DNA of 64,000 bases, taken from an uncultured Planctomycetales bacterium (GTDB lineage Bacteria > Omnitrophota > Gorgyraeia > Zapsychrales > JANLHA01). A program made the position numbers and the translations under genes. The notes under the pieces were generated by a model, which searched no databases, had not been told where the DNA came from, and saw only the letters and a list, made by a program, of their open reading frames with translations. Where the stretch lies: NCBI GenBank assembly GCA_964474085.1, contig CAYYRJ010000004.1:11656-75655 (forward strand), read 5' to 3'. Below are positions 18,940 through 54,621 of the stretch, piece after piece; the stretch's first letter is position 1; every line of letters begins with the position of its first letter.

Positions 18940-20034
18940 ATGGAAAATCAGAGATATATTGATGAGCTTGATTTAAAAAGTTGTATCAAGATTATTGTTA
19001 AGAAAAAAACGCTTATTTTAACAACATCCCTTTTATCCGTCCTTATTTTAGCGACACCCGCTTTATTCGAACCTAAAATTTATTCGGCAACAGCTTCAAT
19101 CACAATAACTCCTCATAACATCACACACAAAATCCGGCTCAAATCAAATTTAATTTTAACCAGAATCATCCAAAATCTTAATTTAAAGAATTCTTCCGGA
19201 AAAGAACTAAGCGCAGATGAATTATCTGAAAAATTAACGACACGAAACGCCGGAGAAGATAATTTAACATATCTAGACGCAACTGCTGACAATCCAGAAA
19301 AAGCAAAAGAAATAGCCGATACCTGGGTACAAGAATATTTAAAACACATCCAAGAATTAAATGCTCAACAAGTTGCTATAACAGAAGGGTCCATCGCTAA
19401 ACAACTTGAATTAGCTCAAGCAAAGCTAAACCAAGCCCATGAAGATGTTCTCAACTTTAAAAAAACACATCGCGTTGATCTTTTGCGTACTGAATTACTT
19501 GCGAGAGAAACTGCTTTGGATGGAATAAAAAAACAACTTGCTCAAATGCAATTTGATGTGACTCTTAAGGAAATTATGCTTGCCGAGCTTAAAAATCAAA
19601 TGGCTTCAAAAGATAAACGAAACGCTACTTATCCTGACTTAGAAAAGCTCATCGTCGAAAATACGATAGAAATTAACACTTTCCCCTCCAAAGCTGAGTA
19701 TTTAAAAAAAACGATTGAAACGATGACAAAAGAAAACACACAATTAAATAATGAACTTATCGATAAGGAATTAGAGATCACAAAATTAACGCATGACGTT
19801 GATGTCCGGCAGAATGAATATCACACAGTTTCCGATAAAATGAATACAACGCGTAATGATCTGGCGCTTGTTCTAGGGGAGATAAAAATAATATCGACGG
19901 CTATCTCTCCAACGCAGCCTGTCAATCACGGAAAAATAAACAAGACAATCGCCCTGACAAGCGTTTTAGGCTTAATGCTTGGCATATTTATCGCTTTCTG
20001 CATCGAATTTTGGCAAAAAGGAAAAAAGGAATAG
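18940..20034 (+). CDS. wzz: Polysaccharide chain-length determinant (Wzz/PCP-like)
   Basis: N-terminal TM, long coiled-coil periplasmic region, C-terminal TM (ALTSVLGLMLGIFIAFCIEF). No kinase domain. Confidence 0.65.
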   Translation: MENQRYIDELDLKSCIKIIVKKKTLILTTSLLSVLILATPALFEPKIYSATASITITPHNITHKIRLKSNLILTRIIQNLNLKNSSGKELSADELSEKLTTRNAGEDNLTYLDATADNPEKAKEIADTWVQEYLKHIQELNAQQVAITEGSIAKQLELAQAKLNQAHEDVLNFKKTHRVDLLRTELLARETALDGIKKQLAQMQFDVTLKEIMLAELKNQMASKDKRNATYPDLEKLIVENTIEINTFPSKAEYLKKTIETMTKENTQLNNELIDKELEITKLTHDVDVRQNEYHTVSDKMNTTRNDLALVLGEIKIISTAISPTQPVNHGKINKTIALTSVLGLMLGIFIAFCIEFWQKGKKE

Positions 20035-20039
20035 ATGTA

Positions 20040-20882
20040 ATGGAAACTGTCATCCATGACGCCAAATACGATCTGATCATCGAAGCAGGACGTAGCGAAC
20101 ACCATTATTGGCAAGACATCTGGCGCTACAGGGAATTATTCTATTTTCTTGCGTGGCGGGATGTCGTCGTCAAATTTAAACAGACCGTCATCGGTGTGCT
20201 GTGGGCTTTAATACGACCACTGTTAACGATGGTCATTTTTGTTTTTATTTTTGGCAAATTGGCCAAATTTCCATCAGGAAATATCCCATACCCGCTTTTG
20301 GTCTTTGCTGCAATGCTTCCATGGCAATTTTTTGCCAGTTCTTTAAGCGAAAGCAGCAATAGCTTGATTTCCAATTCCAGTTTAATTTCAAAAGTTTATT
20401 TTCCCCGAATCATCATTCCAGCCTCATCGGTAATTGTCAGCTTGATTGATTTTTTAATATCCTTTTCAATCCTTTTGGTCTTGATGATCTGGTATAAGTT
20501 TATCCCCGGCTGGCAAATCTTAACATTGCCTTTATTTATCACTATGGCTTTCGCCGCTTCTTTTGGCGCCGGTCTGTGGCTGACTTCCTTAAACGTTAAA
20601 TTCCGCGATTTTCGCTACATTGTGCCATTTATGGTCCAGTTTGGGTTGTATATCTCTCCGGTAGGCTTCTCCAGCAGCATCATCCCCGAACAATGGCGAT
20701 TGCTTTATTCCCTTAATCCCATGGTCGGTGTCATTGATGGTTTTCGCTGGGCAATTTTAGGTCAGAAGGATCAAATATATTTACCGGGTTTTATTCTATC
20801 TTTGGTGTTGATACTTTTAGTTTTGGTTAACGGAATTTTATATTTTCGTAAAACCGAAAAAAAATTTGCGGATATCATCTAA
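20040..20882 (+). CDS. wzm: ABC-2 type polysaccharide/O-antigen export permease Wzm
   Basis: ABC-2 permease with six TM helices; N-terminal motif ELFYFLAWRDVVVKFKQTVIGVLWALIRPLLTM is typical of Wzm/TagG. Confidence 0.85.
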   Translation: METVIHDAKYDLIIEAGRSEHHYWQDIWRYRELFYFLAWRDVVVKFKQTVIGVLWALIRPLLTMVIFVFIFGKLAKFPSGNIPYPLLVFAAMLPWQFFASSLSESSNSLISNSSLISKVYFPRIIIPASSVIVSLIDFLISFSILLVLMIWYKFIPGWQILTLPLFITMAFAASFGAGLWLTSLNVKFRDFRYIVPFMVQFGLYISPVGFSSSIIPEQWRLLYSLNPMVGVIDGFRWAILGQKDQIYLPGFILSLVLILLVLVNGILYFRKTEKKFADII

Positions 20883-22166
20883 ATGTCCACCGTTATCAGA
20901 GTTGAAAATTTAGCCAAAAGTTACATGATCAGCCACGAGAGACGTGATCCATACGCGACTCTGCGCGATGTCATTGCGACTAAAGTGAAAAATTTATTTT
21001 CTGGTCGGGGCTCTGATTTAACACAAGAAGAATTCTGGGCCCTCAAGGATATCAATTTTGAAATTAAACAAAATGACCGTATCGGCATTATCGGCAGAAA
21101 CGGCGCCGGCAAGTCAACTTTGCTTAAAATCTTAAGCCGCATCACTGAGCCGACTCGTGGGCGGGTTTCCATTAAAGGACGCGTCGCCAGTCTTCTGGAG
21201 GTGGGAACAGGTTTTCATCCTGAATTGACTGGCCGGGAAAATATATTCTTAAACGGCGCTATTCTAGGGATGCGCAAGACCGAAATTGACCGAAAGTTTG
21301 ACGAGATCGTAAGTTTTGCCGAGATCGAAAAATTTGTCGATACACCCGTCAAGCGCTATTCAAGCGGAATGTATGTTCGCCTTGCCTTTGCGGTTGCCGC
21401 GCAGCTGGAGCCCGAAATTTTGATCGTTGACGAAGTCTTGGCCGTTGGGGACATCGTTTTTCAAAATAAATGTTTGGGCAAAATGGAAAATATTTCCAAA
21501 GAAGGCCGAACGGTCATTTTTGTAAGTCACAATATTGAGGCGATTCAAAAGCTATGCAACCGCGGAATTATTTTACATGAAGGGAAAGTTGCAATGCAGG
21601 GTGATGTTGACCAAGTCGTTAATAAATATCTTGGCGAAGGGTTAGGCTTAATCGGAGAGCAAGTCTGGCAGGACATTCAAAAAGCACCGGGAGATCAAGT
21701 TGTAAAGATGGTAGCCGTAAGGGTTTTAGATAAAAATGATAATGTCTGCACAAAATTTGATGTGCGTGATCCTGTAACTATCGAATTAGAGTACCACATT
21801 TTAGAAGCAGGGCATCGGTTGTGCACACAAATTTATTTTGTCAATGAGCTGGGCCACGTCCTTTTTATATCAAAAGATAATTTAGATTCTCCATGGAAAA
21901 ATACAGGCTGCAGCGTTGGACATTTTAAAAGCCACTGCCATGTGCCCGGCGATTTTCTTAATGAAGGCGAGGTTTCGATTGTTTATGGCATTGATACCGT
22001 CGGATCTTCTCTCGTAAATCATGCAACGGATCGGGATGTTGTCCGATTTAGAGTAACTGACCATATGGATCCGCGCGGTGTTCGTGGCAATTATCCGTTG
22101 ACATGGCGTCATGATGGCGTGCGGCCAAGGCTGCAATGGACTGTCGAAAAATCGATTCAATTTTAA
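20883..22166 (+). CDS. wzt: ABC transporter ATP-binding protein Wzt with C-terminal carbohydrate-binding extension
   Basis: Walker A GRNGAGKST, signature SSGMYVRL, Walker B ILIVDE. A C-terminal extension of about 170 aa after the NBD resembles the Wzt O-antigen-binding domain. Confidence 0.85.
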   Translation: MSTVIRVENLAKSYMISHERRDPYATLRDVIATKVKNLFSGRGSDLTQEEFWALKDINFEIKQNDRIGIIGRNGAGKSTLLKILSRITEPTRGRVSIKGRVASLLEVGTGFHPELTGRENIFLNGAILGMRKTEIDRKFDEIVSFAEIEKFVDTPVKRYSSGMYVRLAFAVAAQLEPEILIVDEVLAVGDIVFQNKCLGKMENISKEGRTVIFVSHNIEAIQKLCNRGIILHEGKVAMQGDVDQVVNKYLGEGLGLIGEQVWQDIQKAPGDQVVKMVAVRVLDKNDNVCTKFDVRDPVTIELEYHILEAGHRLCTQIYFVNELGHVLFISKDNLDSPWKNTGCSVGHFKSHCHVPGDFLNEGEVSIVYGIDTVGSSLVNHATDRDVVRFRVTDHMDPRGVRGNYPLTWRHDGVRPRLQWTVEKSIQF

Positions 22167-22180
22167 AGGAAACAATTACC

Positions 22181-23041
22181 ATGACGAACAATAAAACTTG
22201 TTATTTATGCTTTGGTGAATTGTTCACGAGAAGAAAGGGGATCGTCCGGGATAACCCAAACCTCAAAGTTTTAGAGTGTCAAAAATGCGGGCTGACGTCT
22301 TTGTCTTCTTTTTCCCATATTGATGATAAATTTTATCGTGACTCAAAGATGCACAATTCCGGCAAAGAAATCGAAGTGTGGTTAAAAGAAACTTCTGCTG
22401 ATGACGAAAGACGGTTTAAAACGTTCAAAAATTTTATTAAAAATAAATCCGTTCTTGACTTCGGTTGCGGTGCCGGAGGTTTTTTGAAACATGCAAAAAC
22501 TACCGCTTCTCGCATTCAAGGGGTTGAGTTAGAAAGTCGACTAAAGGCTCATTTTAAAAAAGAAAGAATCCCTCTAGCCACAAAACTTGAAACTCTCAAA
22601 CAAACTTTTGATGTGATCACACTTTTTCATGTCCTAGAGCATGTCCCTGACCCAATTTCATTATTAACAAATCTCAGCAAAAAATTAACCAAAACAGGAA
22701 GCATCATCGTCGAGGTCCCAAACGCTAATGATGCGCTGCTTTCTTTATACAACTCTAAAGAATTTTCAAGATTTACTTACTGGAGTTGTCACTTGTTTTA
22801 CTTTTCTTCTTTAACATTAGAAAAAATAGCAAAAAAATCAGGCTTAAAAGTAAATTACATAAAACAAGTCCAGCGATATCCTTTATCGAATCATTTGCAT
22901 TGGCTTTCAAAAGGAAAGCCGGGTGGGCATAAAATTTGGAATTTTTTCAATGACAGCAAACTAAATGAAATTTATGAATCGAAACTGAGAAATATTGATG
23001 GCTGTGATACACTTTTAGCGAGTTTTTCAAAAACAGGCTGA
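22181..23041 (+). CDS. Class I SAM-dependent methyltransferase with N-terminal Cys4 zinc-ribbon
   Basis: CYLCFG...CQKCGL zinc ribbon; SAM motif I VLDFGCGAGGF. Confidence 0.7.
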   Translation: MTNNKTCYLCFGELFTRRKGIVRDNPNLKVLECQKCGLTSLSSFSHIDDKFYRDSKMHNSGKEIEVWLKETSADDERRFKTFKNFIKNKSVLDFGCGAGGFLKHAKTTASRIQGVELESRLKAHFKKERIPLATKLETLKQTFDVITLFHVLEHVPDPISLLTNLSKKLTKTGSIIVEVPNANDALLSLYNSKEFSRFTYWSCHLFYFSSLTLEKIAKKSGLKVNYIKQVQRYPLSNHLHWLSKGKPGGHKIWNFFNDSKLNEIYESKLRNIDGCDTLLASFSKTG

Positions 23042-23079: not shown

Positions 23080-23577
23080 ATGAAAAAGATCAATGCCAGC
23101 GATATCAAAGTTGTTGTGTTAGATTTTGATGGAGTTTTAACAGACAATAAAGTTTATGTCGATCAATTGGGACGAGAGATGGTTTGTTGTTCGCGGGCTG
23201 ATGGTTTGGCCTGTGAGATTTTAAAGAAATCTAATATTAAAGTCTTTATTTTATCTACGGAGAGAAATCCTGTTGTTGCTCGTCGTGCTGAAAAAATAAA
23301 TGTCGATTTACTTTTCGGGCTAACAGACAAATTGGGAGCATTAAACAAACTTGCTAAACAGCATCGATTTTCTTTGCAACACGTTTTGTACGTTGGTAAT
23401 GACGTCAACGATTTTACTGTTATGAAAGCTTGTGGCTTTCGAGCATCTCCTGCAGACGCTACGAAACAAATTAAAAAAATATCAAATATTCACTTAAAAA
23501 CAAAAGGGGGAGATGGAGTTGTTCGTGAAATTGTAAACGAAATTTTTAAGATTGATGTAACAAAAGACAACATTTAA
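23080..23577 (+). CDS. HAD-IIIA phosphatase of the KdsC/Kdn-9-phosphate phosphatase family
   Basis: DFDGVLTD motif I, about 165 aa, VGNDVND motif IV. This matches the KdsC / BT1713-like sugar-acid-phosphate phosphatases. Confidence 0.8.
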   Translation: MKKINASDIKVVVLDFDGVLTDNKVYVDQLGREMVCCSRADGLACEILKKSNIKVFILSTERNPVVARRAEKINVDLLFGLTDKLGALNKLAKQHRFSLQHVLYVGNDVNDFTVMKACGFRASPADATKQIKKISNIHLKTKGGDGVVREIVNEIFKIDVTKDNI

Positions 23578-23602
23578 AAGTACTCTAATCGAAAGGTGAG
23601 TC

Positions 23603-24451
23603 ATGCTGGAATTCAATAAAATCAAGGCCCCGTACCTTATTGGTGAAGTTGGTATCAATCACAATGGCGACATTCAGATTGCAAAGCGCCTTATCGATGC
23701 TGTTTTTGCCTGTGACTGGAGCTGTGTTAAGTTCCAGAAAAGAGATCCTGATATTTGCGTCCCTGATGACCAAAAAAATATTATGCGCGATACCCCTTGG
23801 GGTCGAATAACCTATCTCGAATATCGCAAAAAGGTCGAATTTGAAAAAAAAGAATTTGATTATATCGATAATTATTGCCGGCAAAAGCCTCTTTCTTGGG
23901 CCGCTTCGGTTTGGGATCTTAATAGTCTTAATTTCATTAAGAATTATGAGGTGGCGTTTATAAAAATCCCTTCTGCAAAATTGACAGACTTTGAACTTTT
24001 AGAGGCAGCAGGAAAAACTAAATTTCCCCTGATCCTGTCCACAGGAATGTCAACCATCGAAGAAGTCGATCAAGCTGTCGATATCATAAGAAAATCGTCT
24101 AATAATTTTATTCTTCTGCATACCAACTCAAGTTATCCTGCCAAAGATAGCGAATGCAATTTAAATTGTATTAAAACATTACGAGATCGTTATAAATGTC
24201 CCGTCGGATATAGCGGGCATGAACAAGGGCTTGAACCGACTGTTATGGCCGCTGTTTTAGGTGCTAATGTTATCGAAAGACACATAACAACCGACCATGC
24301 GTTATGGGGAACAGATCAAGCCGCCAGCGTTGCCCCGATGGGTATGGATATGCTGTATAAACGCGTTCGCAGTGTCAATGAGATTTTAGGAGATGGCGTA
24401 AAACGCATTTTTGATAGCGAAATTTCAGTCCGTAAAAAATTACGCGGGTAA
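23603..24451 (+). CDS. NeuB-family sialic-acid / nonulosonate(-9-phosphate) synthase-like enzyme, lacking C-terminal SAF domain
   Basis: N-terminus IGEVGINHNGDIQIAKRLIDA..KFQK is the NeuB/PseI/Kdn-9-P synthase TIM-barrel signature. At 282 aa it is too short to contain the antifreeze-like SAF domain. Confidence 0.75.
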   Translation: MLEFNKIKAPYLIGEVGINHNGDIQIAKRLIDAVFACDWSCVKFQKRDPDICVPDDQKNIMRDTPWGRITYLEYRKKVEFEKKEFDYIDNYCRQKPLSWAASVWDLNSLNFIKNYEVAFIKIPSAKLTDFELLEAAGKTKFPLILSTGMSTIEEVDQAVDIIRKSSNNFILLHTNSSYPAKDSECNLNCIKTLRDRYKCPVGYSGHEQGLEPTVMAAVLGANVIERHITTDHALWGTDQAASVAPMGMDMLYKRVRSVNEILGDGVKRIFDSEISVRKKLRG

Positions 24452-24473
24452 TATTTAATAGCTAAACAGATCT

Positions 24474-25163
24474 ATGTTAAATAAAAAAGAAGTTATTGCA
24501 ATTATCCCTGCAAGGGGAGGATCCAAAGGGATTGCGCGAAAAAATTTGTGTCTGTTAGACAGAAAGCCTTTGATCGCGCATACAATTCTTGATGCAAAGG
24601 AATCAAAAATTGTTGACCGGGTATATGTTTCTACCGAGGATCCAGAAATTGCATCCGTTTCTTCTTACTATGGCGCGGAAGTTATCGTAAGACCCCGAAA
24701 GCTAGCTGGTGACCGCACAACATCAGAAGCAGTTTTATTGCATGCGCTTGAAAAAATCAAAAAATCCGGGATTTCCCCTAATCTTATCGTTTTTTTACAA
24801 TGTACCTCTCCGATTAGGACTGCCGAGGATATCGACAAAGCTATTCTCACCCTGAATCGTAAAGCCGTGGACTCTCTTTTATCGGTATCCCCATCACATC
24901 GCTTTATTTGGGAAAAAGGCAAAAACCGTGTCCGGTCGCTTAATTATGATTATCGCGACCGATCTCGTCGGCAAGATATGCCGCCGCAATATTTAGAAAA
25001 TGGTTCTATTTACATTTTTAAGCCTTGGATATTAGAAAAATTTAATAATCGACTAGGTGGCAAAATAACGCTTTTTGAAATGAGCCACTGGAGCTCATTT
25101 GAAATTGATACGATTGAAGACTTCAAAATATGTGATTGGATAATGAAACAAAAGTTAATTTAG
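24474..25163 (+). CDS. Acylneuraminate (nonulosonate) cytidylyltransferase, CMP-NeuAc/CMP-Kdn synthetase-like
   Basis: IAIIPARGGSKGIARKNL N-terminal motif of the NeuA/KdsB family; about 229 aa. Confidence 0.8.
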   Translation: MLNKKEVIAIIPARGGSKGIARKNLCLLDRKPLIAHTILDAKESKIVDRVYVSTEDPEIASVSSYYGAEVIVRPRKLAGDRTTSEAVLLHALEKIKKSGISPNLIVFLQCTSPIRTAEDIDKAILTLNRKAVDSLLSVSPSHRFIWEKGKNRVRSLNYDYRDRSRRQDMPPQYLENGSIYIFKPWILEKFNNRLGGKITLFEMSHWSSFEIDTIEDFKICDWIMKQKLI

Positions 25164-25173
25164 AAAACAGCGT

Positions 25174-26124
25174 ATGGACTTTTCATCAAGTGTTTATTTA
25201 CCAAATTCCGAAGAAAGAATCGACGCGTTACGTAAAATCATTGCCGGAAGACCCGTCGCAATTCTTGCCGCCGGCCCGTCTATTGAAAATCTTGAACGGC
25301 GAATTCATGAACTGCGCCACAAGGATATCTGCTATTTTGGACTAAATCAATTTTTTGTTCAAGAAACACACATTTTACAAAAGATTGAAAAGAAATTGTC
25401 TGTCGTTATGTGCAGCAGCCGTGACGGTATGCCGATGTTAATTAAATCGATCACTGATTTCCTAAAAAGAGATGCGCATAACATGCTAATCTCATCTTTT
25501 TGGAGCAACACATTTGAACTCTTAGACAAGAATTTTAACCTTGAGAATTTTCTTAAAGAATATGACAAAAAGCTTCTTTTTTTTAGTTTAAACTCTGAGA
25601 AAAATTGTCCCAATGTCGACAACCCCTTACACTTTATACAGAGCAATTCTTTACTAATATTAATCCAATTAGCATTGATCGGAAAAGCAGAGAGCATTAT
25701 TCTTTTTGGCGCAGATGGACATGTTAAGCAAGGAACCGAAAAATATTACTATCGTCAGAACGAATATTCTAAACAAGGATGGGCTGGCATCAATGATGCG
25801 CTTATTAACGATACCCAGCATTATTTTAATGCCATCGCCGCTGCCGCGATAAAGAATACTTGTCAAACTTATAATCTTGCACTAGTCAATATTTTGAATT
25901 GCTCTTTACAAAGTTTTTATACTCCGTTTCAAAAAATATCCTATGATGACGCAATTGAATACCTGTCAAACGGGAAAAGATTATTTAAAAGCCTGGATTT
26001 GCGAATTCCAGTGCAACCCAAAAAACAAAATCATTATTCATTGACTGTTCAAAGGGCTTTAAGTTTTTGTAAAAAGCACGGAAAGAAATTCTTTAAGGAG
26101 TGTTATGCAACAAAATCGACCTAA
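25174..26124 (+). CDS. GT42-like (CstII-family) sialyl/nonulosonate transferase candidate
   Basis: N-terminal VAILAAGPSI...DICYFGLNQFFVQ matches the CstII motifs IIAGNGPSL and DVFRCNQFYFE. It lies directly after the CMP-sugar synthetase. Confidence 0.55.
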   Translation: MDFSSSVYLPNSEERIDALRKIIAGRPVAILAAGPSIENLERRIHELRHKDICYFGLNQFFVQETHILQKIEKKLSVVMCSSRDGMPMLIKSITDFLKRDAHNMLISSFWSNTFELLDKNFNLENFLKEYDKKLLFFSLNSEKNCPNVDNPLHFIQSNSLLILIQLALIGKAESIILFGADGHVKQGTEKYYYRQNEYSKQGWAGINDALINDTQHYFNAIAAAAIKNTCQTYNLALVNILNCSLQSFYTPFQKISYDDAIEYLSNGKRLFKSLDLRIPVQPKKQNHYSLTVQRALSFCKKHGKKFFKECYATKST

Positions 26125-27076
26125 AATATCGATAATCAGCCCGTCAAAAAATACCGGAAGATTTGCAAAAGAGACTATTGAATCGATTTTAGCCCAAACT
26201 TTTAAAAATTGGGAACATATTGTCGTCGATGGAGTCTCCACCGACGAAACGTTAGATATCCTCAAACAGTATCCTCACATACGTTGGATTTCAGAAAAGG
26301 ACAGTGGCCCAGACGAAGCTTTTAAAAAAGGTCTGGCCATGGCTCAGGGTGAATATATTATGATGTGCTGTATTTCTGATGGCTATCTTGACAAAAATTG
26401 GTTTAAAAAATGCGTCGAAACGTTAGATTCACGGCGAGAAATCTCTTTAGTTTGGGGCATCGATCAAAATATGCTAGAGGATGGGACTCTCGATACCATT
26501 GTTTATAACTCCTGGCTTGAAAACCCACCACCAAGCGGCAAAGACTACCTCTATTATTGGCTAAAGAATGGGACGCTTTTTCATGAGCGTGATCTGTGCG
26601 TAAGAAAAAAAGTCATGGATATATGTTTTCCTCCACTAGATCTACAAAGCATTGGACAGGAATGCGGCCACTTAAAATTTGGTTTTAATTTTAATCGGTT
26701 GGGTTTCTTGCCCCAGTTTATTAGTGCAGTTGCTGCTTATGGGAGATTGCATTCAAATAATGCAGGCCAAAAACAGGCGATTACTGGCGAAGCAGAAAAG
26801 CGCCTCAAGGAATATTTTCATGACATTGAGGAATACAAAAAGAAACTCATAAAAGGCGACCTGACGCATTGCTATCGCGACGGGGATGACAAATTATTGC
26901 CGGGGACATTTGATTTAAGAAAATACCTTCAACTGGACAAAAGAAACAAATTCAAAGAAATCGTCGAATTGTTTATACCACCTATTTTTTTTCGTTTAAC
27001 AAACAAGATATCAGCAAAGTATCGGTCTTATCAAAATTTAAAAAAACTTAAAATGTCGGTTTCTGCTGATCTCTAA
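26105..27076 (+). CDS. Family 2 glycosyltransferase
   Basis: ISIISPSKNTGRFAKETIESILAQTF...VVDGVSTDET GT-A N-terminal signature. Confidence 0.8.
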   Translation: MQQNRPKISIISPSKNTGRFAKETIESILAQTFKNWEHIVVDGVSTDETLDILKQYPHIRWISEKDSGPDEAFKKGLAMAQGEYIMMCCISDGYLDKNWFKKCVETLDSRREISLVWGIDQNMLEDGTLDTIVYNSWLENPPPSGKDYLYYWLKNGTLFHERDLCVRKKVMDICFPPLDLQSIGQECGHLKFGFNFNRLGFLPQFISAVAAYGRLHSNNAGQKQAITGEAEKRLKEYFHDIEEYKKKLIKGDLTHCYRDGDDKLLPGTFDLRKYLQLDKRNKFKEIVELFIPPIFFRLTNKISAKYRSYQNLKKLKMSVSADL

Positions 27077-29849: not shown

Positions 29850-30796
29850 TGACAGTGCCATCCAAGAATCATTGTTGCGTTATCGGCGGATGCGGGTTCA
29901 TTGGCCATCATGTTGTTGAGCTTCTTGCCAGACAAAAAAAAGCGATAACCGTAATCGGCAGAAACCCGCACCCGACAAGAAAACTCCCACCCAAAGTTCG
30001 TTATATCGCCGGAGATTATGGTAATCCCAAACTCTTGTCCGAGACTTTTAAAAATGTCGACCAGATCATTGATCTTGCCTACACATCGGTTCCCAAAACA
30101 AGTTTCGATAATCCAGTCAAGGACATTTTGGGCAACTTGCCAGCGTCGGTCAATCTGTTGGAAGTCGCCAGTTTATTTCCCATTAAAAAAATTATTATCG
30201 TGTCTTCCGGCGGTACCATTTACGGAAATGCCGATAACTTGCCTATCAGGGAAGATCATCCGACTAATCCGATTTCGCCTTATGGCATAACCAAACTCGC
30301 TGTTGAAAAATATGCCATGATGTACCATAAAATCAAAGGTTTACCGATTGTCTGTGTCAGGCCCGGCAATGCTTTCGGTGAAGGCCAAAAGCCTTTTGTC
30401 GGACAAGGATTTGTGGCTACGGCGATCGGATCGATATTAGAAAAACGGGAAATCAATATTTTTGGCGGGCATGGCACAATCAGAGATTTTATTTATGTAA
30501 AAGACTTAGCCAGCGCTATCGTCGCAGCTTTAAACTGCCCGTCGGGAGAATGTTATAATATCGGCACTGGTATTGGCCAAAGCAATCAAGCGATTATCGA
30601 AATGCTCGCGTCGATTACGAAATCAAAAGATATTCTTTCACAAATTAAAATCCTGCCGGCAAGAAAGTTCGATGTGGCTGTCAATATCCTCGACAGCTCT
30701 AAACTTCATAAAGAGACCGGCTGGACCCCTAAGGTTTCGCTCGAAAAAGGGCTTAAGCTGACTTGGGAACATTTTAAGAAACACCATAAAGCATGA
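29849..30796 (+). CDS. NAD-dependent nucleotide-sugar epimerase/dehydratase (extended SDR)
   Basis: CVIGGCGFIGHHVVELL Rossmann motif; catalytic YGITK (YxxxK). Confidence 0.75.
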   Translation: MTVPSKNHCCVIGGCGFIGHHVVELLARQKKAITVIGRNPHPTRKLPPKVRYIAGDYGNPKLLSETFKNVDQIIDLAYTSVPKTSFDNPVKDILGNLPASVNLLEVASLFPIKKIIIVSSGGTIYGNADNLPIREDHPTNPISPYGITKLAVEKYAMMYHKIKGLPIVCVRPGNAFGEGQKPFVGQGFVATAIGSILEKREINIFGGHGTIRDFIYVKDLASAIVAALNCPSGECYNIGTGIGQSNQAIIEMLASITKSKDILSQIKILPARKFDVAVNILDSSKLHKETGWTPKVSLEKGLKLTWEHFKKHHKA

Positions 30797-31890
30797 CACA
30801 ACGCACACCAACTGTTACTGTTTTAATGCCCGTTTATAACGGGGCCCGTTTTTTGCGCGAATCGATCGAGTCTATTCTTAACCAGACCTTTAATGATTTT
30901 GAATGTTTAATTATTGACGACGCATCGACAGACACCTCACGCGAGATTATCCGCTCCTTTACCGATCCGCGCATCAAACTTATTGAAAATGCCAACAATT
31001 GCGGACTGGTCAAAACTCTTAATCGCGGCCTTGCTTTGGCCAAAGGCGAATATATCGCCCGTCAGGATCAAGATGATATATCTTATCCGGCAAGGCTTGA
31101 AAAACAGGTGACTTTTCTAAACAGTCATCCGCAAATCGTTCTTCTGGGAACAAATATCCACAACATCGACGAAAATGGCAAAAAAAGTATTTCCTATGGA
31201 TACTCTATCGTAAGCACTCCTGCGGCGATCCACTGGCAGATCATCTTTGACAACCCATTTGTTCATTCATCTGTTATGTTTCGAACAGAAATTATCCGTA
31301 ATTTGGGTGGTTACAATGACCATTTCAATGCGTGTGAAGATTTTGATTTATTCTCACGCGTTTGTTCAAGCTATGGAACTACAAATTTAAACGAAAAAAT
31401 TATCGAGTATCGTTATCACTCGGCTTCTATGATCGCGACCTCCACAAAAGCAAACAATTTACTGATCGGAGAAATATTAAGTAGAAATTATCGCCACACG
31501 CTAAACCTCGACGCCCCGCCAGAGTGGATCGAGCTTTGGCTTACCATTAACAATCCATACAACTTCCAGCAAAGCGTTGATGCAAAAAAATTAGTGCACC
31601 ACATTCAAACAAATTATCGCCAGTTTATTTCCCGTTATCCTGATGCCAAAGATAATGCCGAAATTAAAAGAAACATAACCCACATGCTGATCCGAAGCGC
31701 ATTTAATCTCGCCTTAAAAGACCGCGGCGCATCGCTCTATTGTTTTTATCAAGTTATGAAAAAAGATCTATTATTGTCCTGCTCGATCTTACCAAAATAT
31801 TTTTTCGCACTTGTTTGTGGCTGCCACCGAGCATTGATCTCCCAAAGAATTAAAACTTTTTTTACACGCTTTAGGATCAAATGGACATGA
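30793..31890 (+). CDS. Family 2 glycosyltransferase
   Basis: VTVLMPVYNGARFLRESIESILNQTFNDFECLIIDDASTD. Confidence 0.8.
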   Translation: MTQRTPTVTVLMPVYNGARFLRESIESILNQTFNDFECLIIDDASTDTSREIIRSFTDPRIKLIENANNCGLVKTLNRGLALAKGEYIARQDQDDISYPARLEKQVTFLNSHPQIVLLGTNIHNIDENGKKSISYGYSIVSTPAAIHWQIIFDNPFVHSSVMFRTEIIRNLGGYNDHFNACEDFDLFSRVCSSYGTTNLNEKIIEYRYHSASMIATSTKANNLLIGEILSRNYRHTLNLDAPPEWIELWLTINNPYNFQQSVDAKKLVHHIQTNYRQFISRYPDAKDNAEIKRNITHMLIRSAFNLALKDRGASLYCFYQVMKKDLLLSCSILPKYFFALVCGCHRALISQRIKTFFTRFRIKWT

Positions 31891-32867
31891 AAACTGTAAT
31901 TGTCGACACAATCCGACAAACCGACTATTTATTAAACAGCGCCTATTTAGGATCGATAGGGGAGAAAAAATCGCTGATTATTTTTCTGTTTCACGCTATT
32001 TTTAGAAATACCGACGAGGCCAAGGCGAATGTCATCGAGCCGCCGCAGGGGATGCTTTTAGAGCATTTTTGTCAATTTATTGAATATTATCAAGCCCATC
32101 AGTACACTTTTGTTTCGCCAGAGGATATCCTCAAAGGATTAGACAAGCACAAGAATTATTGTTTAATCGCCTTTGATGATGGGTATTACAACAATGCTTA
32201 TGTTTTGCCTGTTCTAAAAAAATACAAAACGCCCGCTGCCTTTTTTATTTCAACGGATTATGTGAAAAACAATCAGTCGTTTTGGTGGGATGCCTTTTAC
32301 AGACAAAAAAGAAAAACCGGGATAACCGACCAAGCTTTATCCGCAGAAGTCAATTTACTCATGTCATCTAAGAGCAATGAGGCTATCGAACAAAGCATTG
32401 TTGATCAATTCGGCAAAGAAGCGCTTAAGCCCATCGGTGACATTGATCGGCCATTTACACCCCAAGAATTAAAAAATTTTGCAAAAGAAGATTTCGTCTT
32501 TTTGGGCAATCATACCAGCACTCATCCTTATTTACCCAATTGTTCGTCGGATGAAATCCACTCGACAATTCTTGCAGCTCAAAATGATCTTTATGCTATC
32601 GCAGGGATAACGCCCGCGTATATTTCCTATCCGCACGGAGCTTACAATGAAAACGTTATTCAAATAAGCAAAGAAGCCGGTTTAAAACTCGGGATCACGG
32701 TCGATGACCACAAAAATTATCTGCCAATCAATTTTGGGAGTGATGATCCGCTGCGTTTGGGGCGTTTTGCTTTACAGGATAATGACCAATTGATCCGTCA
32801 ATGCCAGTTTTGCCGAACCGACATCCGATTAACGAAAGTCATCAAAAAGTTAATAGGTGTGAAATGA
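31881..32867 (+). CDS. Polysaccharide deacetylase (CE4 family)
   Basis: NodB-type motifs: LIAFDDGY (TFDDG-like), and HTSTHPYL further downstream. Confidence 0.7.
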   Translation: MDMKTVIVDTIRQTDYLLNSAYLGSIGEKKSLIIFLFHAIFRNTDEAKANVIEPPQGMLLEHFCQFIEYYQAHQYTFVSPEDILKGLDKHKNYCLIAFDDGYYNNAYVLPVLKKYKTPAAFFISTDYVKNNQSFWWDAFYRQKRKTGITDQALSAEVNLLMSSKSNEAIEQSIVDQFGKEALKPIGDIDRPFTPQELKNFAKEDFVFLGNHTSTHPYLPNCSSDEIHSTILAAQNDLYAIAGITPAYISYPHGAYNENVIQISKEAGLKLGITVDDHKNYLPINFGSDDPLRLGRFALQDNDQLIRQCQFCRTDIRLTKVIKKLIGVK

Positions 32868-33694
32868 TAAAGATTGTCTGTTTAATTCAAAATAATCCAT
32901 CGCAAGTTTATTTCCTAAACGCTATTAATAAAAAATATAAGATCGCACTGGCTGTCATCGAGTCGCCAGTTACCCGAATGAATTTATTAAAGAAAATCCG
33001 CAGCAAAGGAATACTCGGCAGCCTCGAAGACATCAAGAATCGTCTGTTATACTCGGCAGAAAAACAAAAGCGTAATACCGACGATTTCAATAAACATTTT
33101 GGCAATCAGTGGCAGTCGATTGATAAAAGTATCCCGTTATTAACAACTACTGACGTCAATTCAAAGGAAGTTTATGATCGTTTAACCAATGAAAAACCGG
33201 ATTTGATTCTTGACCATGGAACTTCAATGGTCAAAGATCACATCTTATCTACCGCTTCTTTGGCTTTAAATCTTCATTGGGGATTGTCCCCGTATTATCG
33301 GGGCGCTTACTGTACCGAATGGGCTTTGGTCAATTGGGACCCTTATAATATCGGCGTAACGATACATAAATTAGCCAAAGAAATCGACGGGGGAGATGTT
33401 TTGGCCCAAAAAAGGGTGATCCCAACCCTTGCGGACAATATTTATTCGATCAATATGCAATTAACAAAAGCCGGCGTTGAATTGATTCTTCAGGCCATTG
33501 ACCATATTCAGGCAAGGAAGAACTTGCATTTTAAAAAACAAGATTTTTCCCAAGGCTTTATGACGAGCATCAAACAATGGGACAGAAATATCCTCAAGCA
33601 AGCCCAAAAAATTGAGTCAACCGGGTTACTCAAAGCCATGTTAGAAAAACCAGCCCGCAGCCAACATTTGCCAATAGTTAATTTTAATTCCTAA
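32864..33694 (+). CDS. Sugar N-formyltransferase (Fmt/ArnA-N/WbkC-like formyl_trans_N family)
   Basis: HWGLSPYYRGAY matches the formyltransferase HxSLLPxxRG catalytic motif; N-terminal Rossmann-like fold. Confidence 0.65.
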   Translation: MIKIVCLIQNNPSQVYFLNAINKKYKIALAVIESPVTRMNLLKKIRSKGILGSLEDIKNRLLYSAEKQKRNTDDFNKHFGNQWQSIDKSIPLLTTTDVNSKEVYDRLTNEKPDLILDHGTSMVKDHILSTASLALNLHWGLSPYYRGAYCTEWALVNWDPYNIGVTIHKLAKEIDGGDVLAQKRVIPTLADNIYSINMQLTKAGVELILQAIDHIQARKNLHFKKQDFSQGFMTSIKQWDRNILKQAQKIESTGLLKAMLEKPARSQHLPIVNFNS

Positions 33695-33699
33695 ATAAA

Positions 33700-35041: not shown

Positions 35042-35998
35042 ATGAAAGATACAACAACCAAATTTTATGATGACTGGTATTCTAAAGGATATATGGACCA
35101 GTGGCCGCAAGAGAAGAAAGAGAGAATTTTTGAACTGATTGTCAGTTTAAATCTCCCAGAGACAGGGGAAATTCTGGATTTTGGTTGCGGCAACGGCGAG
35201 TTTACCGGCGTTCTCAAAAAAGCCCTGCCCAAATGGACAGTCACGGGTGGCGATATCAGCGCAGTTGCTGTTTCCAATGCCAAAAAACGACATCCCGACT
35301 GTCATTTTCTATTATTGTCAGATTTACACTCGATAGACAAAAAATTTGATTTTCTGTTTTCTCATCATGTCTTGGAGCACGTCGACGACATGAAAAAAAT
35401 TTGGCATGATATTGACCAATACTTAAAGGCGCAAGCTCGTTGCCTGCACATTTTGCCTTGCGGCAATATAGGAAGTTTTGAGTACAATTTGTGCCTATTA
35501 AGAAAAGATGGCATCAATAAAGATAGGGGTAACAGTTTTATTTTTGAAGACACGAGTCATTTGCGAAGATTAACTACAGAAGAAATGAACAAATTCGCTA
35601 TGACGCATGGCTTAAAGCTGGTTTGGGGGTATTATAGCCACCAGTTCTATGGCGCCCTCGAGTACGTTACTTCTTTAAGTCCTACCTTGATTTTGGGAAT
35701 GATAAATCCAACCAGAGGCAAAAATATTTTTTCGGGGTTGAAGTTATTGCTTTTGTGTGGGATATTGCAGGTTATTAAATTTTTTCGATTACCAGCTAAC
35801 ATAATCGAATACCGAAAAGGAAAAATAGCCAACTACAAATACTATTGCCTTTTTGTAGTGCTGTTTATATTTTATCCTCTTTCAAAATTGACGAACATTA
35901 GCCTGCAAATGATGGCACGGCGGGAATGGAAGCATCATCGAAACAACGAGAATGGCAGTGAAATGTATTTATATTATAAAAGGAATCTTGCCGCATGA
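35042..35998 (+). CDS. Class I SAM-dependent methyltransferase
   Basis: ILDFGCGNGEF motif I. Confidence 0.7.
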   Translation: MKDTTTKFYDDWYSKGYMDQWPQEKKERIFELIVSLNLPETGEILDFGCGNGEFTGVLKKALPKWTVTGGDISAVAVSNAKKRHPDCHFLLLSDLHSIDKKFDFLFSHHVLEHVDDMKKIWHDIDQYLKAQARCLHILPCGNIGSFEYNLCLLRKDGINKDRGNSFIFEDTSHLRRLTTEEMNKFAMTHGLKLVWGYYSHQFYGALEYVTSLSPTLILGMINPTRGKNIFSGLKLLLLCGILQVIKFFRLPANIIEYRKGKIANYKYYCLFVVLFIFYPLSKLTNISLQMMARREWKHHRNNENGSEMYLYYKRNLAA

Positions 35999-49622: not shown

Positions 49623-49638
49623 TCAGAATATCGTCAAA

Positions 49639-54573: not shown

Positions 54574-54621
54574 TTTCTGCTAAGATTGATTTCAAATTTT
54601 TTAAATTCCTATACTCGACCT

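What the first reader, a model, noticed from the sequence alone, without database searches (positions are those of the whole stretch)
23080..26124. Kdn/nonulosonic-acid module: KdsC-family phosphatase + SAF-less NeuB homolog + cytidylyltransferase + CstII-like GT42 transferase
A HAD phosphatase of the KdsC family next to a NeuB-type synthase and a NeuA-type CMP-transferase mirrors the Bacteroides Kdn-9-phosphate pathway (synthase, BT1713-type phosphatase, CMP-Kdn synthetase) rather than the classical phosphate-free NeuB route. The synthase, at 282 aa, lacks the SAF/antifreeze-like domain. The following ORF carries the GNGPSL / D-x-FRCNQFYF-like motifs (AILAAGPSI ... ICYFGLNQFFVQ) of CstII-family sialyltransferases. 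This predicts transfer of Kdn or another 9-carbon acidic sugar onto the glycan.
Basis: partly seen in the sequence, partly recalled or inferred. Interest (0 to 1): 0.65.

Follow-up and report, generated by a model that had tools for sequence, protein, structure and literature searches.

The report
Phosphate-route sialic-acid-like sugar module
Four adjacent genes in a cell-surface polysaccharide cluster of an uncultured bacterium most likely make a CMP-activated nine-carbon acidic sugar (probably Kdn) through a phosphorylated intermediate and attach it to the glycan; the pathway is of a known kind, but the putative transferase belongs to an unannotated protein family.

Summary
Window 23080-26124 holds four tightly packed, co-directional ORFs: a KdsC-fold HAD phosphatase, a 282-aa NeuB-family synthase without a SAF domain, a CMP-sugar synthetase, and a 316-aa protein with no family above threshold.

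The phosphate route is well supported. The phosphatase has Glu56/Lys67, the residues found in all 82 phosphatases beside BT1714-like synthases; KdsC has Arg and Thr/Ala there. The synthase sits in a 96%-supported SAF-less clade. That clade falls, at 66% support, with phospho-sugar-using synthases and shares their KFQKR and WG-x-T loop motifs. Close relatives are often next to, or their CMP-transferase fused to, the same phosphatase.

Kdn is the most economical product: there is no NeuC, no ManNAc kinase and no Pse/Leg set, and Gmd implies a mannose-phosphate supply. It is not proven.

SAF loss does not mirror Bacteroides, whose synthases keep SAF. It matches the validated Prymnesium Kdn-9-P synthetase and is already known in environmental NeuBs.

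The fourth ORF is not a GT42 member by sequence. It does model confidently into a Maf/DUF115- and sialyltransferase-like fold, shows CstII-colinear motifs, and lies within 10 kb of NeuB and CMP-transferase genes in 8 of 9 loci. It is probably a new nonulosonate-transferase family that works with the downstream GT2.

The parts
23080..23577 (+). C0-type HAD phosphatase with the KdsC fold; predicted nonulosonate-9-phosphate (Kdn-9-P type) phosphatase
   Evidence: The best NCBIfam match is NF058599, KDN-9-P phosphatase, at 123.6 bits, below its cut-off of 180. PDB matches are 3mmz (1e-32) and BT1713/3e81 (3e-28). In BT1713 numbering it has Glu56, Arg64 and Lys67, as do 82/82 BT1713 orthologues and 18-19 of 19 NeuB-linked metagenome HADs; KdsC has Arg56 and Thr/Ala67. 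The catalytic DxD motif is present.
23603..24451 (+). SAF-less NeuB-family synthase condensing PEP with a sugar phosphate; predicted Kdn-9-P synthase type
   Evidence: PF03102 matches at 6e-70 and there is no SAF domain. It belongs to a SAF-less clade with 96% bootstrap support that lies on the phospho-sugar side of the tree. It has the KFQKR and WG-x-T loop motifs found in the P. parvum Kdn-9-P synthetase, human NANS and BT1714-like proteins. It is 29% identical to the validated P. parvum enzyme.
24474..25163 (+). CMP-nonulosonate synthetase (NeuA type)
   Evidence: PF02348 matches at 6e-23. The best PDB match is 6ifd, a CMP-Neu5Ac synthetase, at 2e-33. It is 37% identical over its full length to the validated P. 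parvum CMP-Kdn synthetase.
25174..26124 (+). Unannotated family with a Maf/DUF115- and sialyltransferase-like fold; predicted CMP-nonulosonate-dependent glycosyltransferase
   Evidence: The only family match is a sub-threshold PF01973 hit. The AF2 model has mean pLDDT 90.5. Foldseek matches are ST6GalNAc2, MptE, and viral DUF115 and GT29 proteins. The CstII motifs align colinearly. NeuB and CTP_transf_3 genes lie within 10 kb in 8 of 9 loci.
26105..27076 (+). GT2 glycosyltransferase, partner of ORF 4
   Evidence: PF00535 matches at 1.5e-20. It overlaps ORF 4 by 20 nt. A GT2 gene follows the ORF 4 homologue in L002, L003, L145, L146 and L148, and is fused to it in L004 and in many proteins of 490-630 aa.
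20010..22166 (+). Context: Wzm permease and Wzt ATPase, the ABC-transporter export route for the glycan that receives the sugar
   Evidence: PF01061 ABC2_membrane; PF00005 ABC_tran plus a sub-threshold Wzt_C domain (28.7 bits against a cut-off of 30.4). The same wzm-wzt-neuB-neuA...ORF 4-GT2 order is seen in the Omnitrophota MAG locus L002.
22136..23041 (+). Context: SAM-dependent methyltransferase directly upstream of the module
   Evidence: PF13489 matches at 1.4e-24. Its role, whether glycan or chain-end methylation or methylation of the acidic sugar, was not tested.

Best explanation
This is an operon-like module inside an ABC-transporter-dependent surface-polysaccharide cluster. It makes and installs a CMP-activated nine-carbon 2-keto-3-deoxy acid by the phosphorylated route.

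Step 1 (inferred): the SAF-less NeuB homologue condenses PEP with a hexose-6-phosphate, most economically mannose-6-phosphate, giving Kdn-9-phosphate.

Step 2 (inferred from residue signature and gene linkage): the KdsC-fold HAD phosphatase removes the 9-phosphate.

Step 3 (family assignment shown, substrate inferred): the cytidylyltransferase makes the CMP-sugar.

Step 4 (inferred from fold, motifs and gene linkage): the 316-aa protein has a Maf/GT42/GT29-like fold. It binds the CMP-sugar through its GPS loop, N58 and the FGxDG motif. It then transfers the acid onto the glycan, working with the overlapping GT2.

Sub-confidences: phosphate-route nonulosonate pathway about 0.75; product is Kdn about 0.45; ORF 4 is the nonulosonate transferase about 0.6.
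For: Phosphatase
- Glu56, Arg64 and Lys67 match 82/82 phosphatases next to BT1714-like synthases in Bacteroidota, and 18-19 of 19 HADs next to NeuB homologues in metagenomes. Four KdsC proteins, one verified against PDB 2r8e and three read from that same PDB search, have Arg56 and Thr/Ala67.
- The top NCBIfam model is the KDN-9-P phosphatase.

Synthase
[quoted passage not shown] The split from NmNeuB, PseI and the rest has 131/200 support.
- K-F-Q-K-R after strand beta2 and [WFY]-G-x-[TM] in the alpha2-beta2 loop are seen only in that group. PMC8208679 cites this loop as favouring the phosphate interaction in the human enzyme.
- Among 11 metagenome loci with at least 55% identity, 6 have the HAD phosphatase adjacent. 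One of these (L088) has a CMP-transferase::HAD fusion.
- The validated, strictly Man-6-P-specific P. parvum enzyme is also SAF-less (PMC6200933).

Substrate
- The only 2-epimerase in the window is WecB-like (207 bits), not NeuC-like (70 bits).
- No kinase family appeared among the ORFs scanned between 12671 and 56448, and no PseB/G/H or LegB/G/H set was seen.
- Gmd at 47597 implies mannose-phosphate metabolism.

ORF 4
- The AF2 model is confident, with pLDDT 90.5 and pTM 0.89.
- Foldseek matches are human ST6GalNAc2 (E = 4e-4, probability 0.99), MptE (probability 0.98), and at least eight viral MptE-like/DUF115 proteins. Three viral sialyltransferases (one annotated GT29) also match, more weakly.
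- 20 of 39 family members give sub-threshold PF01973 hits. PF01973 is the Maf nonulosonate-transferase domain and is structurally related to CstII (bioRxiv 10.1101/2020.06.03.131540).
- A colinear 225-column alignment to GT42 pairs GPS with GPS, N58 with N31, A167 with A140, G179 with G152 and D181 with D154. The N-to-(T/N)S spacing is 100 residues in both.
- NeuB and CTP_transf_3 genes lie within 10 kb in the window, L002, L004, L005, L145, L146, L147 and L148, which come from different phyla.
- The domain is fused to GT2, TPR, pyruvyl-transferase and methyltransferase domains.
Against: - No score reaches a curated equivalog cut-off: NF058599 123.6 against 180, TIGR03569 231.7 against 399.65, PseF 128.8 against 205.7.
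- The SAF-less clade is distinct from every biochemically characterised synthase, so the substrate is inferred from context only.
- The classical/phospho split has only 66% NJ bootstrap support. The tree has no confirmed LegI sequence, and the N-terminal part of the human NANS sequence was recalled from memory.
- The phosphatase has Asn instead of Asp at the first position of motif IV (GNDVND). It shares this with 3mmz and 5 of 19 linked HADs.
- About 40% of close synthase homologues have no HAD in the flank available.
- The syntenic Omnitrophota locus L002 has a different SAF-less NeuB subfamily, no HAD, and extra modifying enzymes. ORF 4 relatives are therefore not tied to one sugar.
- ORF 4 versus GT42 is statistically weak (P = 0.027, probability 1.8%). 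CstII is not among the top 50 PDB Foldseek hits, TM-scores to solved structures are low (0.34-0.45), and no conserved His corresponds to CstII His188.
- None of the 57 metagenome loci found with the window synthase contains an ORF 4 homologue.
Confidence: 0.6

Rival explanations
1. The route is the same phosphate route, but the sugar is Neu5Ac, as in animals: ManNAc-6-P plus PEP gives Neu5Ac-9-P, then Neu5Ac, then CMP-Neu5Ac.
For: Human NANS lies in the same half of the tree and shares the loop motifs. The top PDB matches of the cytidylyltransferase are CMP-Neu5Ac synthetases. The best NCBIfam model for the synthase is NeuB_NnaB. A GlcNAc-6-P 2-epimerase (NanE) encoded elsewhere in the genome could supply ManNAc-6-P.
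Against: The 64-kb window has no NeuC, no ManNAc kinase and no NanE among the ORFs scanned, and its 2-epimerase is WecB-like. The enzyme lacks the SAF domain, whose Arg314 takes a direct part in substrate binding in NmNeuB (PMC8208679; contact with the N-acetyl group specifically is from memory). The validated SAF-less P. parvum enzyme rejects ManNAc-6-P (PMC6200933).
Confidence: 0.13
2. The synthase uses another sugar phosphate and makes a different, possibly undescribed, ulosonic acid. The module is a variable cassette in a family of glycans that carry modified acidic sugars.
For: The SAF-less clade is separate from all characterised enzymes. Relatives in ORF 4-containing loci of CPR, Omnitrophota and Chloroflexota sit among B12-radical-SAM enzymes, transketolase halves, GHMP kinases, SDRs, glyoxalases, aminotransferases and methyltransferases. 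A methyltransferase lies directly upstream in the window.
Against: In the window the module itself consists only of phosphatase, synthase and cytidylyltransferase, with no dedicated precursor genes beside it. That fits a central metabolite such as Man-6-P. The close-homologue loci L088-L093 are similarly minimal.
Confidence: 0.2
3. This is a classical phosphate-free NeuB/LegI/PseI pathway, and the HAD protein is simply KdsC for LPS Kdo synthesis that happens to lie next to it.
For: KdsC models also match the phosphatase (TIGR01670 95.7 bits, PRK09484 94.2 bits). The window contains PglF-like, LegC/PglE-like and hexapeptide acetyltransferase genes, which could make a diacetamido-trideoxyhexose.
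Against: Residues 56 and 67 are Glu and Lys, not the Arg and Thr/Ala of KdsC. The phosphatase-synthase linkage recurs across lineages and includes a fusion to the cytidylyltransferase. The synthase is only 22% identical to NmNeuB and 27% to PseI and lacks their motif states. There is no hydrolysing 2-epimerase. The KdsC score is below its cut-off.
Confidence: 0.05
4. ORF 4 is not the acidic-sugar transferase. It could be an MptE-like kinase or pyrophosphokinase, a transferase for another sugar, or an enzyme that modifies the CMP-sugar. The acid would then be transferred by one of the other glycosyltransferases in the cluster.
For: The only Pfam signal is to the MptE-like family, which also contains a pterin diphosphokinase. 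Similarity to GT42 is not statistically significant. There is no counterpart of the CstII catalytic His. Many close homologues of the window synthase have no ORF 4 homologue nearby.
Against: ORF 4 co-locates with NeuB and CMP-transferase genes in 8 of 9 loci across phyla. It is fused or overlaps with GT2 and is fused to other polysaccharide-modifying domains. Fold matches include GT29 sialyltransferases. Maf proteins of the same Pfam family are demonstrated nonulosonate transferases. There are no folate or pterin genes nearby.
Confidence: 0.3

Closest known systems
Bacteroides thetaiotaomicron Kdn pathway: BT1714 Kdn-9-P synthase, BT1713 Kdn-9-P phosphatase, BT1715 CMP-Kdn synthetase (Wang et al. 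2008, as cited in PMC6200933)
   Same: It has the same three enzyme families and the same logic: PEP plus a sugar-6-P, then dephosphorylation, then CMP activation. Synthase and phosphatase are adjacent in all 80 Bacteroidota-dominated loci retrieved. The phosphatase shares Glu56, Arg64 and Lys67.
   Different: The BT1714-like synthases are about 347 aa and carry a SAF domain. They are only 32-34% identical to the window enzyme and form a separate clade with 100% support. The window phosphatase scores below the equivalog cut-off. The gene order also differs: phosphatase first in the window, synthase first in Bacteroidota.
[quoted passage not shown]
   Same: Its synthase is also SAF-less (312 aa, NeuB domain only) and shares the KFQKR and G-x-T loop motifs. 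The synthases are 29% identical and the cytidylyltransferases 37% identical over their full lengths.
   Different: It is eukaryotic. No cognate phosphatase was found, and it falls outside the window's SAF-less clade. Its strict Man-6-P specificity cannot be carried over to the window enzyme at 29% identity.
Vertebrate NANS / NANP / CMAS pathway
   Same: It uses a phosphorylated substrate and product. The C-terminal domain of CMAS has a KdsC-like fold (PDB 3ewi matches the window phosphatase). The metagenome relative L088 has the same cytidylyltransferase::HAD fusion architecture.
   Different: NANS keeps the antifreeze-like SAF domain. From memory, NANP belongs to a different HAD subfamily. 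The vertebrate product is mainly Neu5Ac.
Campylobacter jejuni CstII, a GT42 sialyltransferase (PF06002)
   Same: It has an N-terminal G-x-G-P-S loop, an N-Q-F-[FY] motif about 20 residues later, and a (T/N)-S...A...G-x-D block. Order and spacing are nearly identical, with 100 residues between N and T/N-S. Both have a variable basic C-terminal tail.
   Different: ORF 4 has no PF06002 hit. The profile-profile comparison gives P = 0.027 and probability 1.8%. There is no conserved residue at the His188 position. CstII is not among the top 50 Foldseek PDB hits.
Maf flagellin nonulosonate glycosyltransferases and the MptE-like family (PF01973, DUF115)
   Same: This is the only Pfam family that detects ORF 4 and 20 of 39 relatives. 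Fold matches to MptE and to many viral MptE-like/DUF115 proteins have probability 0.97-1.0. Maf proteins transfer Pse, Leg, Neu5Ac and Kdo from CMP donors.
   Different: All hits are below the gathering score (21.5 against 34.6 bits) and cover only about 35 N-terminal residues. There are no Maf flanking domains and no flagellar context. The acceptor here is probably a glycan rather than flagellin.
Terminal beta-Kdo capping of ABC-transporter-dependent O antigens (Klebsiella O12 / Raoultella WbbB with a Wzt carbohydrate-binding module). This is recalled from memory and is a lead, not a test.
   Same: An ulosonic-acid module sits directly beside wzm-wzt, and Wzt has a C-terminal extension that resembles Wzt_C. 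The ORF 4 domain often occurs in multidomain transferases.
   Different: The acid and the transferase fold differ (WbbB is GT99). No evidence here shows that the acid is terminal.

Membership tests
NeuB family (Pfam PF03102) | Full-length match above the gathering score | tested here: met
   235.8 bits against a cut-off of 22.1; residues 30-267 match profile positions 1-241.
N-acetylneuraminate synthase NeuB/NnaB equivalog (TIGR03569) | Score at or above the curated cut-off of 399.65, and a C-terminal SAF domain | tested here: not met
   231.7 bits, with the match ending at profile position 274 of 329. No PF08666 SAF hit.
Pseudaminic acid synthase PseI (TIGR03586) | Score at or above the cut-off of 340.25, and clustering with PseI | tested here: not met
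   163.7 bits. The protein is 27% identical to C. jejuni PseI and lies on the other side of the NJ tree.
Phospho-sugar-using sialic-acid synthases (Kdn-9-P / Neu5Ac-9-P synthase class) | Groups with characterised Kdn-9-P / Neu5Ac-9-P synthases rather than with classical NeuB or PseI | tested here: inconclusive
   It falls on their side of the NJ tree, but the split has 131/200 bootstrap support and the protein sits in its own SAF-less clade (191/200). No verified LegI sequence was included.
Phospho-sugar-using sialic-acid synthases (Kdn-9-P / Neu5Ac-9-P synthase class) | Signature in the alpha2-beta2 loop: K-x-[QT]-K-[RS] and [WFY]-G-x-[TM] | tested here: met
   The window has KFQKR and WGRIT. 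The signature is present in P. parvum, human NANS, BT1714-like and HAD-linked proteins. K-x-[QT]-K-[RS] is absent from all nine sequences on the classical side; [WFY]-G-x-[TM] is absent there too, and only PseI keeps a Trp at that position. The signature was derived here and is not a curated definition.
Phospho-sugar-using sialic-acid synthases (Kdn-9-P / Neu5Ac-9-P synthase class) | Genomic linkage to a sugar-acid 9-phosphate phosphatase | tested here: met
   The phosphatase is adjacent in the window. It is adjacent in 6 of 11 loci with at least 55% identical synthases, and one of these has a CMP-transferase::HAD fusion.
Phospho-sugar-using sialic-acid synthases (Kdn-9-P / Neu5Ac-9-P synthase class) | Catalysis with Man-6-P or ManNAc-6-P and not with the free sugars | not testable with these tools
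   This needs an enzyme assay.
KDN-9-phosphate phosphatase, BT1713 type (NF058599) | Score at or above the curated cut-off of 180 | tested here: not met
   123.6 bits. It is the best-scoring model and is matched end to end, profile positions 2-151 of 152.
KDN-9-phosphate phosphatase, BT1713 type (NF058599) | Glu56 and Lys67 (with Arg64), the residues that separate synthase-linked phosphatases from KdsC | tested here: met
   The window has Glu, Arg and Lys at these positions. So do 82/82 orthologues, while KdsC has Arg56 and Thr/Ala67. That these are the published specificity residues is from memory (Lu et al. 2009); the paper could not be read.
KdsC, Kdo-8-P phosphatase (TIGR01670 / PRK09484) | Score at or above the cut-offs of 106.95 and 208, and Arg at the position equivalent to BT1713 residue 56 | tested here: not met
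   95.7 and 94.2 bits. The window has Glu rather than Arg at position 56 and Lys rather than Thr/Ala at position 67.
CMP-nonulosonate synthetase (PF02348 CTP_transf_3) | Domain match above the gathering score | tested here: met
   82.1 bits against a cut-off of 22.6. The PseF equivalog is not met (128.8 against 205.7), and the KdsB models score only 30-54 bits.
GT42 sialyltransferases (CstII/Cst-I, PF06002) | Significant sequence or profile similarity to the family | tested here: not met
   No PF06002 hit at E <= 1 in any of 39 family members. hhalign against CstII alone gives probability 1.2%. Against a 28-sequence GT42 alignment it gives probability 1.8% and P = 0.027.
GT42 sialyltransferases (CstII/Cst-I, PF06002) | CMP-binding motifs G-x-G-P-S, N31-Q-F, T131-S132 and G152-x-D154, in order | tested here: met
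   G34-P-S36, N58-Q-F, N158-S159 and G179-x-D181 align colinearly with nearly identical spacing. G34, S36, N58, G179 and D181 are conserved at 89-100% across 226 members.
GT42 sialyltransferases (CstII/Cst-I, PF06002) | Catalytic base His188 | tested here: not met
   His188 is invariant in the GT42 alignment. The ORF 4 family has no residue conserved at 85% or more at or near the aligned position, and H153 is not conserved at 85% or more across the wider family.
Maf / MptE-like (PF01973, DUF115) | Score at or above the gathering cut-off of 34.6 | tested here: not met
   21.5 bits over residues 15-50 only. 20 of 39 relatives give sub-threshold hits, the best at 2.6e-6.
Maf / MptE-like (PF01973, DUF115) | Modified GT-A (sialyltransferase-like) fold | tested here: met

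The most novel reading that the evidence does not exclude
The ORF 4 family has about 500 representatives at 50% identity. It occurs in Omnitrophota, CPR/Patescibacteria, Margulisiibacteriota and Chloroflexota, and possibly in archaea. On this reading it is an undescribed, CAZy-level family of CMP-ulosonic-acid transferases. It would descend from the Maf/GT42 fold but use a different catalytic base. Together with an obligatory GT2 partner, often fused to it, it would act as a two-module polymerase or chain terminator for ABC-transporter-exported glycans. The acidic sugar could then be the non-reducing-end cap read by the C-terminal domain of Wzt. The upstream biosynthetic cassette would be swappable: the minimal Kdn-type module here, heavily tailored acids elsewhere.
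Probability: 0.3. Interest if true: 0.62.

Novelty: new variant of a known kind. Interest (0 to 1): 0.45.

Why it matters
Transferases for nonulosonic acids are the least known step of bacterial sialic-acid-like glycosylation, and only a handful of families are characterised. This work defines a compact family with confidently modelled structure and clear conserved residues: R26, G34, S36, N58, E64, R99, N103, F178-G-x-D-G182, N242 and S247. It is almost always linked to NeuB and CMP-transferase genes in poorly studied phyla, which makes it a concrete target for expression and assay.

The work also yields practical sequence markers for predicting phosphate-route (Kdn-type) against classical NeuB pathways in metagenomes. 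For the phosphatase these are Glu56 and Lys67. For the synthase they are the KFQKR and WG-x-T motifs.

The biosynthetic half of the finding is an ordinary member of a known pathway type, and SAF-less NeuBs are already in the literature.

Tried and rejected
- KDO8P synthase as the identity of the NeuB homologue: rejected. There is only a sub-threshold DAHP_synth_1 hit (16 bits) against 236 bits for NeuB.
- GT42 membership of ORF 4 by sequence: not supported.
- Direct sequence search of ORF 4 and of its family profile against the PDB: only noise plus the N-terminal loop of MptE.
- Reading the primary papers on BT1713 specificity and on BT1714: not held in the library. The specificity residues were therefore re-derived from alignments.
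- Human NANS Met42, the reported Kdn determinant: uninformative. The window has Ala, as does NmNeuB.
Identical genes occur on an unnamed 97.7-kb NCBI contig and in metagenome assemblies. The best synteny is with an Omnitrophota MAG.
- ORF 4 homologues among the 57 metagenome loci found with the window synthase: none.

Full report
**1. What is there**

Window 23080-26124 contains four co-directional ATG-initiated ORFs of 165, 282, 229 and 316 aa. They are separated by 25, 22 and 10 nt. A GT2 gene follows and overlaps the last ORF by 20 nt.

They lie in a + strand run of glycan genes of roughly 40 kb:
- a Wzz-like protein, the Wzm permease, and the Wzt ATPase with a sub-threshold Wzt_C domain;
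- a methyltransferase;
- the four-gene module;
- GT2, two hexapeptide acyltransferases, a GT11, and methyltransferases;
- an arn-like block;
- a WecB-like 2-epimerase, Gmd, an aminotransferase and a C-methyltransferase;
- further glycosyltransferases, an initiating transferase and a PglF-like dehydratase.

G+C content is 37-42% throughout this region, with no compositional break at the module.

Identical proteins occur on an unnamed 97.7-kb NCBI contig and in metagenome assemblies. The closest synteny is with an Omnitrophota MAG (L002).

**2. The phosphatase (23080-23577)**

It is a C0-type HAD protein. Its best NCBIfam model is the Bacteroides KDN-9-P phosphatase (123.6 bits, matched end to end, below the cut-off of 180). 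The KdsC models follow at about 95 bits and are also below their cut-offs. The best solved relatives are 3mmz from Streptomyces avermitilis and BT1713.

I could not read the primary specificity papers, so I re-derived the discriminating positions from alignments.
- BT1713 was taken from the supplement of PMC6200933 and used to fetch 80 loci, almost all from Bacteroidota.
- In all 80 loci a NeuB-family synthase lies beside the phosphatase, upstream of it in 79.
- In those orthologues, position 56 is Glu in 82/82 and position 67 is Lys in 82/82.
- In 19 HADs next to NeuB homologues in metagenome loci, the counts are 18/19 and 19/19.
- Four KdsC proteins, one verified against PDB 2r8e and three read from that PDB search, have Arg56 and Thr/Ala67.
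- The window protein reads STERNPVVARRAEKI, which gives Glu56, Arg64 and Lys67.

It therefore belongs with the synthase-linked phosphatases, not with KdsC. One deviation is Asn at the first position of motif IV. It shares this with 3mmz and 5 of the 19 linked HADs.

**3. The synthase (23603-24451)**

PF03102 covers residues 30-267 and there is no SAF domain. The protein database holds thousands of relatives of 277-297 aa at 60-79% identity, from Omnitrophota, Elusimicrobia, Nitrospirae and CPR lineages. The short form is therefore a family trait.

SAF-less NeuBs in environmental bacteria have been described before: about 30% of 13,941 nonulosonate synthases lack SAF (PMC8208679).

The Bacteroidota synthases next to BT1713 orthologues are about 347 aa, and the two scanned (L024, L044) do carry SAF. 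By contrast, the biochemically validated, strictly Man-6-P-specific Prymnesium parvum Kdn-9-P synthetase is SAF-less (312 aa). It is 29% identical to the window enzyme over its full length.

I built an NJ tree of 46 sequences. It included the window protein, close and distant metagenome relatives, BT1714-like proteins, the P. parvum enzyme and NmNeuB. It also included C. jejuni PseI, Leptospira 6ncs, and human NANS recalled from memory. Only the C-terminal domain of that NANS sequence could be verified, against PDB 1wvo.
- The window protein falls in a SAF-less clade with 191/200 bootstrap support.
- That clade groups with BT1714-like, P. parvum, NANS and other HAD-linked synthases, away from NmNeuB, PseI and the rest, with 131/200 support.

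Alignment inspection gives a sharper marker. K-[FML]-[QT]-K-[RS] after strand beta2 and [WFY]-G-x-[TM] in the alpha2-beta2 loop occur throughout the phospho group. K-[FML]-[QT]-K-[RS] is absent from all nine sequences on the classical side, and only PseI keeps a Trp at the second motif's position. The window has KFQKR...WGRIT. PMC8208679 cites this loop as favouring the phosphate interaction in the human enzyme.

Gene linkage points the same way. Of 11 metagenome loci with a synthase at least 55% identical, 6 have the HAD phosphatase adjacent. One of these (L088) encodes a cytidylyltransferase::HAD fusion.

**4. Which sugar**

The module has no dedicated precursor genes.
- The only 2-epimerase in the window is WecB-like (207 bits against 70 for NeuC).
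- No kinase family appeared among the ORFs scanned between 12671 and 56448.
- No PseB/G/H or LegB/G/H set is present.
- Gmd shows that mannose phosphates are available.

Man-6-P giving Kdn-9-P is therefore the most economical reading. However, the clade contains no characterised member, so Neu5Ac-9-P or another acid cannot be excluded.

The cytidylyltransferase is about equally similar to the P. parvum CMP-Kdn synthetase (37% identity) and to CMP-Neu5Ac synthetases. It does not help decide.

**5. The fourth ORF (25174-26124)**

No curated family reaches threshold. The only signal is a sub-threshold PF01973 (MptE-like/DUF115) match to residues 15-50, which recurs in 20 of 39 relatives.

The family has 111 clusters at 90% identity and 496 representatives at 50% identity with E <= 1e-3.

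An AlphaFold2 model built from 39 homologues is confident, with pLDDT 90.5 and pTM 0.89. Foldseek results were:
- Against the PDB, the top match is human ST6GalNAc2 (GT29; E = 4e-4, probability 0.99). The MptE kinase also matches (probability 0.98). TM-scores are low, at 0.34-0.45.
- Against viral structure predictions, there are 21 matches at E <= 1e-3. Most are uncharacterised phage proteins. Among the annotated matches, MptE-like/DUF115 proteins dominate. Weaker matches include three viral sialyltransferases, one annotated GT29.

PF01973 is the catalytic domain of Maf nonulosonate transferases and is structurally related to CstII. Several GT42 proteins themselves carry precomputed PF01973 hits.

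Direct tests of GT42 membership are weak or negative. hhalign against CstII alone gives probability 1.2%. Against a 28-member GT42 alignment it gives probability 1.8% and P = 0.027.

That alignment is nevertheless colinear over 225 columns and pairs the functional motifs:
- G34-P-S36 with G10-P-S12;
- N58-Q-F with N31-Q-F;
- N158-S159 with T131-S132;
- A167 with A140;
- G179-x-D181 with G152-x-D154.

The spacing is nearly identical in the two families. Across 226 ORF 4-family members the residues conserved at 85% or more include R26, G34, S36, N58, E64, R99, N103, F178-G-x-D-G182, N242 and S247. No histidine matches the CstII catalytic His188.

Genomic context is the strongest functional evidence. 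NeuB and CTP_transf_3 genes lie within 10 kb of an ORF 4 homologue in 8 of 9 loci. These are the window, L002, L004, L005, L145, L146, L147 and L148; L003 is the exception. They span Omnitrophota, CPR and Chloroflexota, and include a locus with AglB/STT3. The synthases in these loci belong to different subfamilies.

A GT2 gene follows the ORF 4 homologue in five of the eight other loci and is fused to it in a sixth. The domain also occurs fused to TPR, pyruvyl-transferase and methyltransferase domains.

In the other direction, none of the 57 loci found with the window synthase holds an ORF 4 homologue. ORF 4 is therefore one of several possible transferases for such sugars.

**6. Verdict**

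ORF 4 is best described as a member of an unannotated family with a Maf/GT42/GT29-like fold that is probably a CMP-nonulosonate transferase.

The biosynthetic genes are new members of a known pathway. The transferase family is a new variant of a known enzyme class and is the part worth experimental follow-up.

Noticed in passing
window 30793-35040: Four adjacent genes resemble the arn (4-amino-arabinose) machinery: a GT2 (ArnC-like), a polysaccharide deacetylase (ArnD-like), a formyltransferase (the best NCBIfam hit is the ArnA formyltransferase domain) and a PMT_2 membrane transferase (ArnT-like). They may add a lipid-carrier-linked amino sugar as a periplasmic side branch to the same glycan.
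   Followed up: partly
window 12671-14896: A 741-aa GT2 with a C-terminal PilZ domain, the BcsA-like architecture of a c-di-GMP-regulated synthase, lies just upstream of the cluster next to the tRNA-Ala gene at 15049-15122.
   Followed up: no
window 15901-17766, 33700-35040 and 35995-37557: There are three PMT_2/ArnT-like membrane glycosyltransferases within one cluster, and one of them is fused to TPR repeats. That is an unusually high number for a single glycan locus.
   Followed up: no
window 52870-54573: An NAD-dependent epimerase/dehydratase domain is fused to a Bac_transf initiating phosphoglycosyl transferase (567 aa). It is followed by a PglF/CapD-like dehydratase at 54586-56448.
   Followed up: no
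window 49597-50907: A 436-aa ORF in the middle of the glycosyltransferase run has no Pfam or NCBIfam match.
   Followed up: no
L088:808-1989: A bacterial metagenome protein fuses a CMP-sugar synthetase to a C-terminal KdsC-type HAD phosphatase, the architecture of vertebrate CMAS. It lies next to a SAF-less NeuB that is 66% identical to the window enzyme.
   Followed up: partly
L148:7038-8825: A 595-aa protein combines radical SAM/SPASM and CTP_transf_3 domains. It lies beside a truncated-looking 232-aa NeuB and an ORF 4 homologue, on a contig that also encodes an AglB/STT3 oligosaccharyltransferase.
   Followed up: no
L002, L003, L004, L005, L145, L146: In CPR, Omnitrophota and other uncultured-lineage loci, the NeuB, CMP-transferase and ORF 4 genes sit among several kinds of tailoring enzyme. 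These include B12-binding radical SAM enzymes, split transketolases, GHMP kinases, SDRs, glyoxalase-fold proteins, aminotransferases and several methyltransferases. This suggests heavily tailored, possibly undescribed ulosonic acids.
   Followed up: partly
window 20883-22166: Wzt has a C-terminal extension of about 170 residues that matches Wzt_C just below threshold (28.7 against 30.4 bits). It is followed immediately by a methyltransferase and then the acidic-sugar module. This raises the possibility that a chain-end cap is read by the exporter.
   Followed up: no
(GT42 proteins P0246, P0260, P0267, P0315, P0330, P0334, P0345): Several genuine GT42 sialyltransferases carry precomputed hits to both PF06002 and PF01973. 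The two Pfam families therefore overlap at the sequence level.
   Followed up: no
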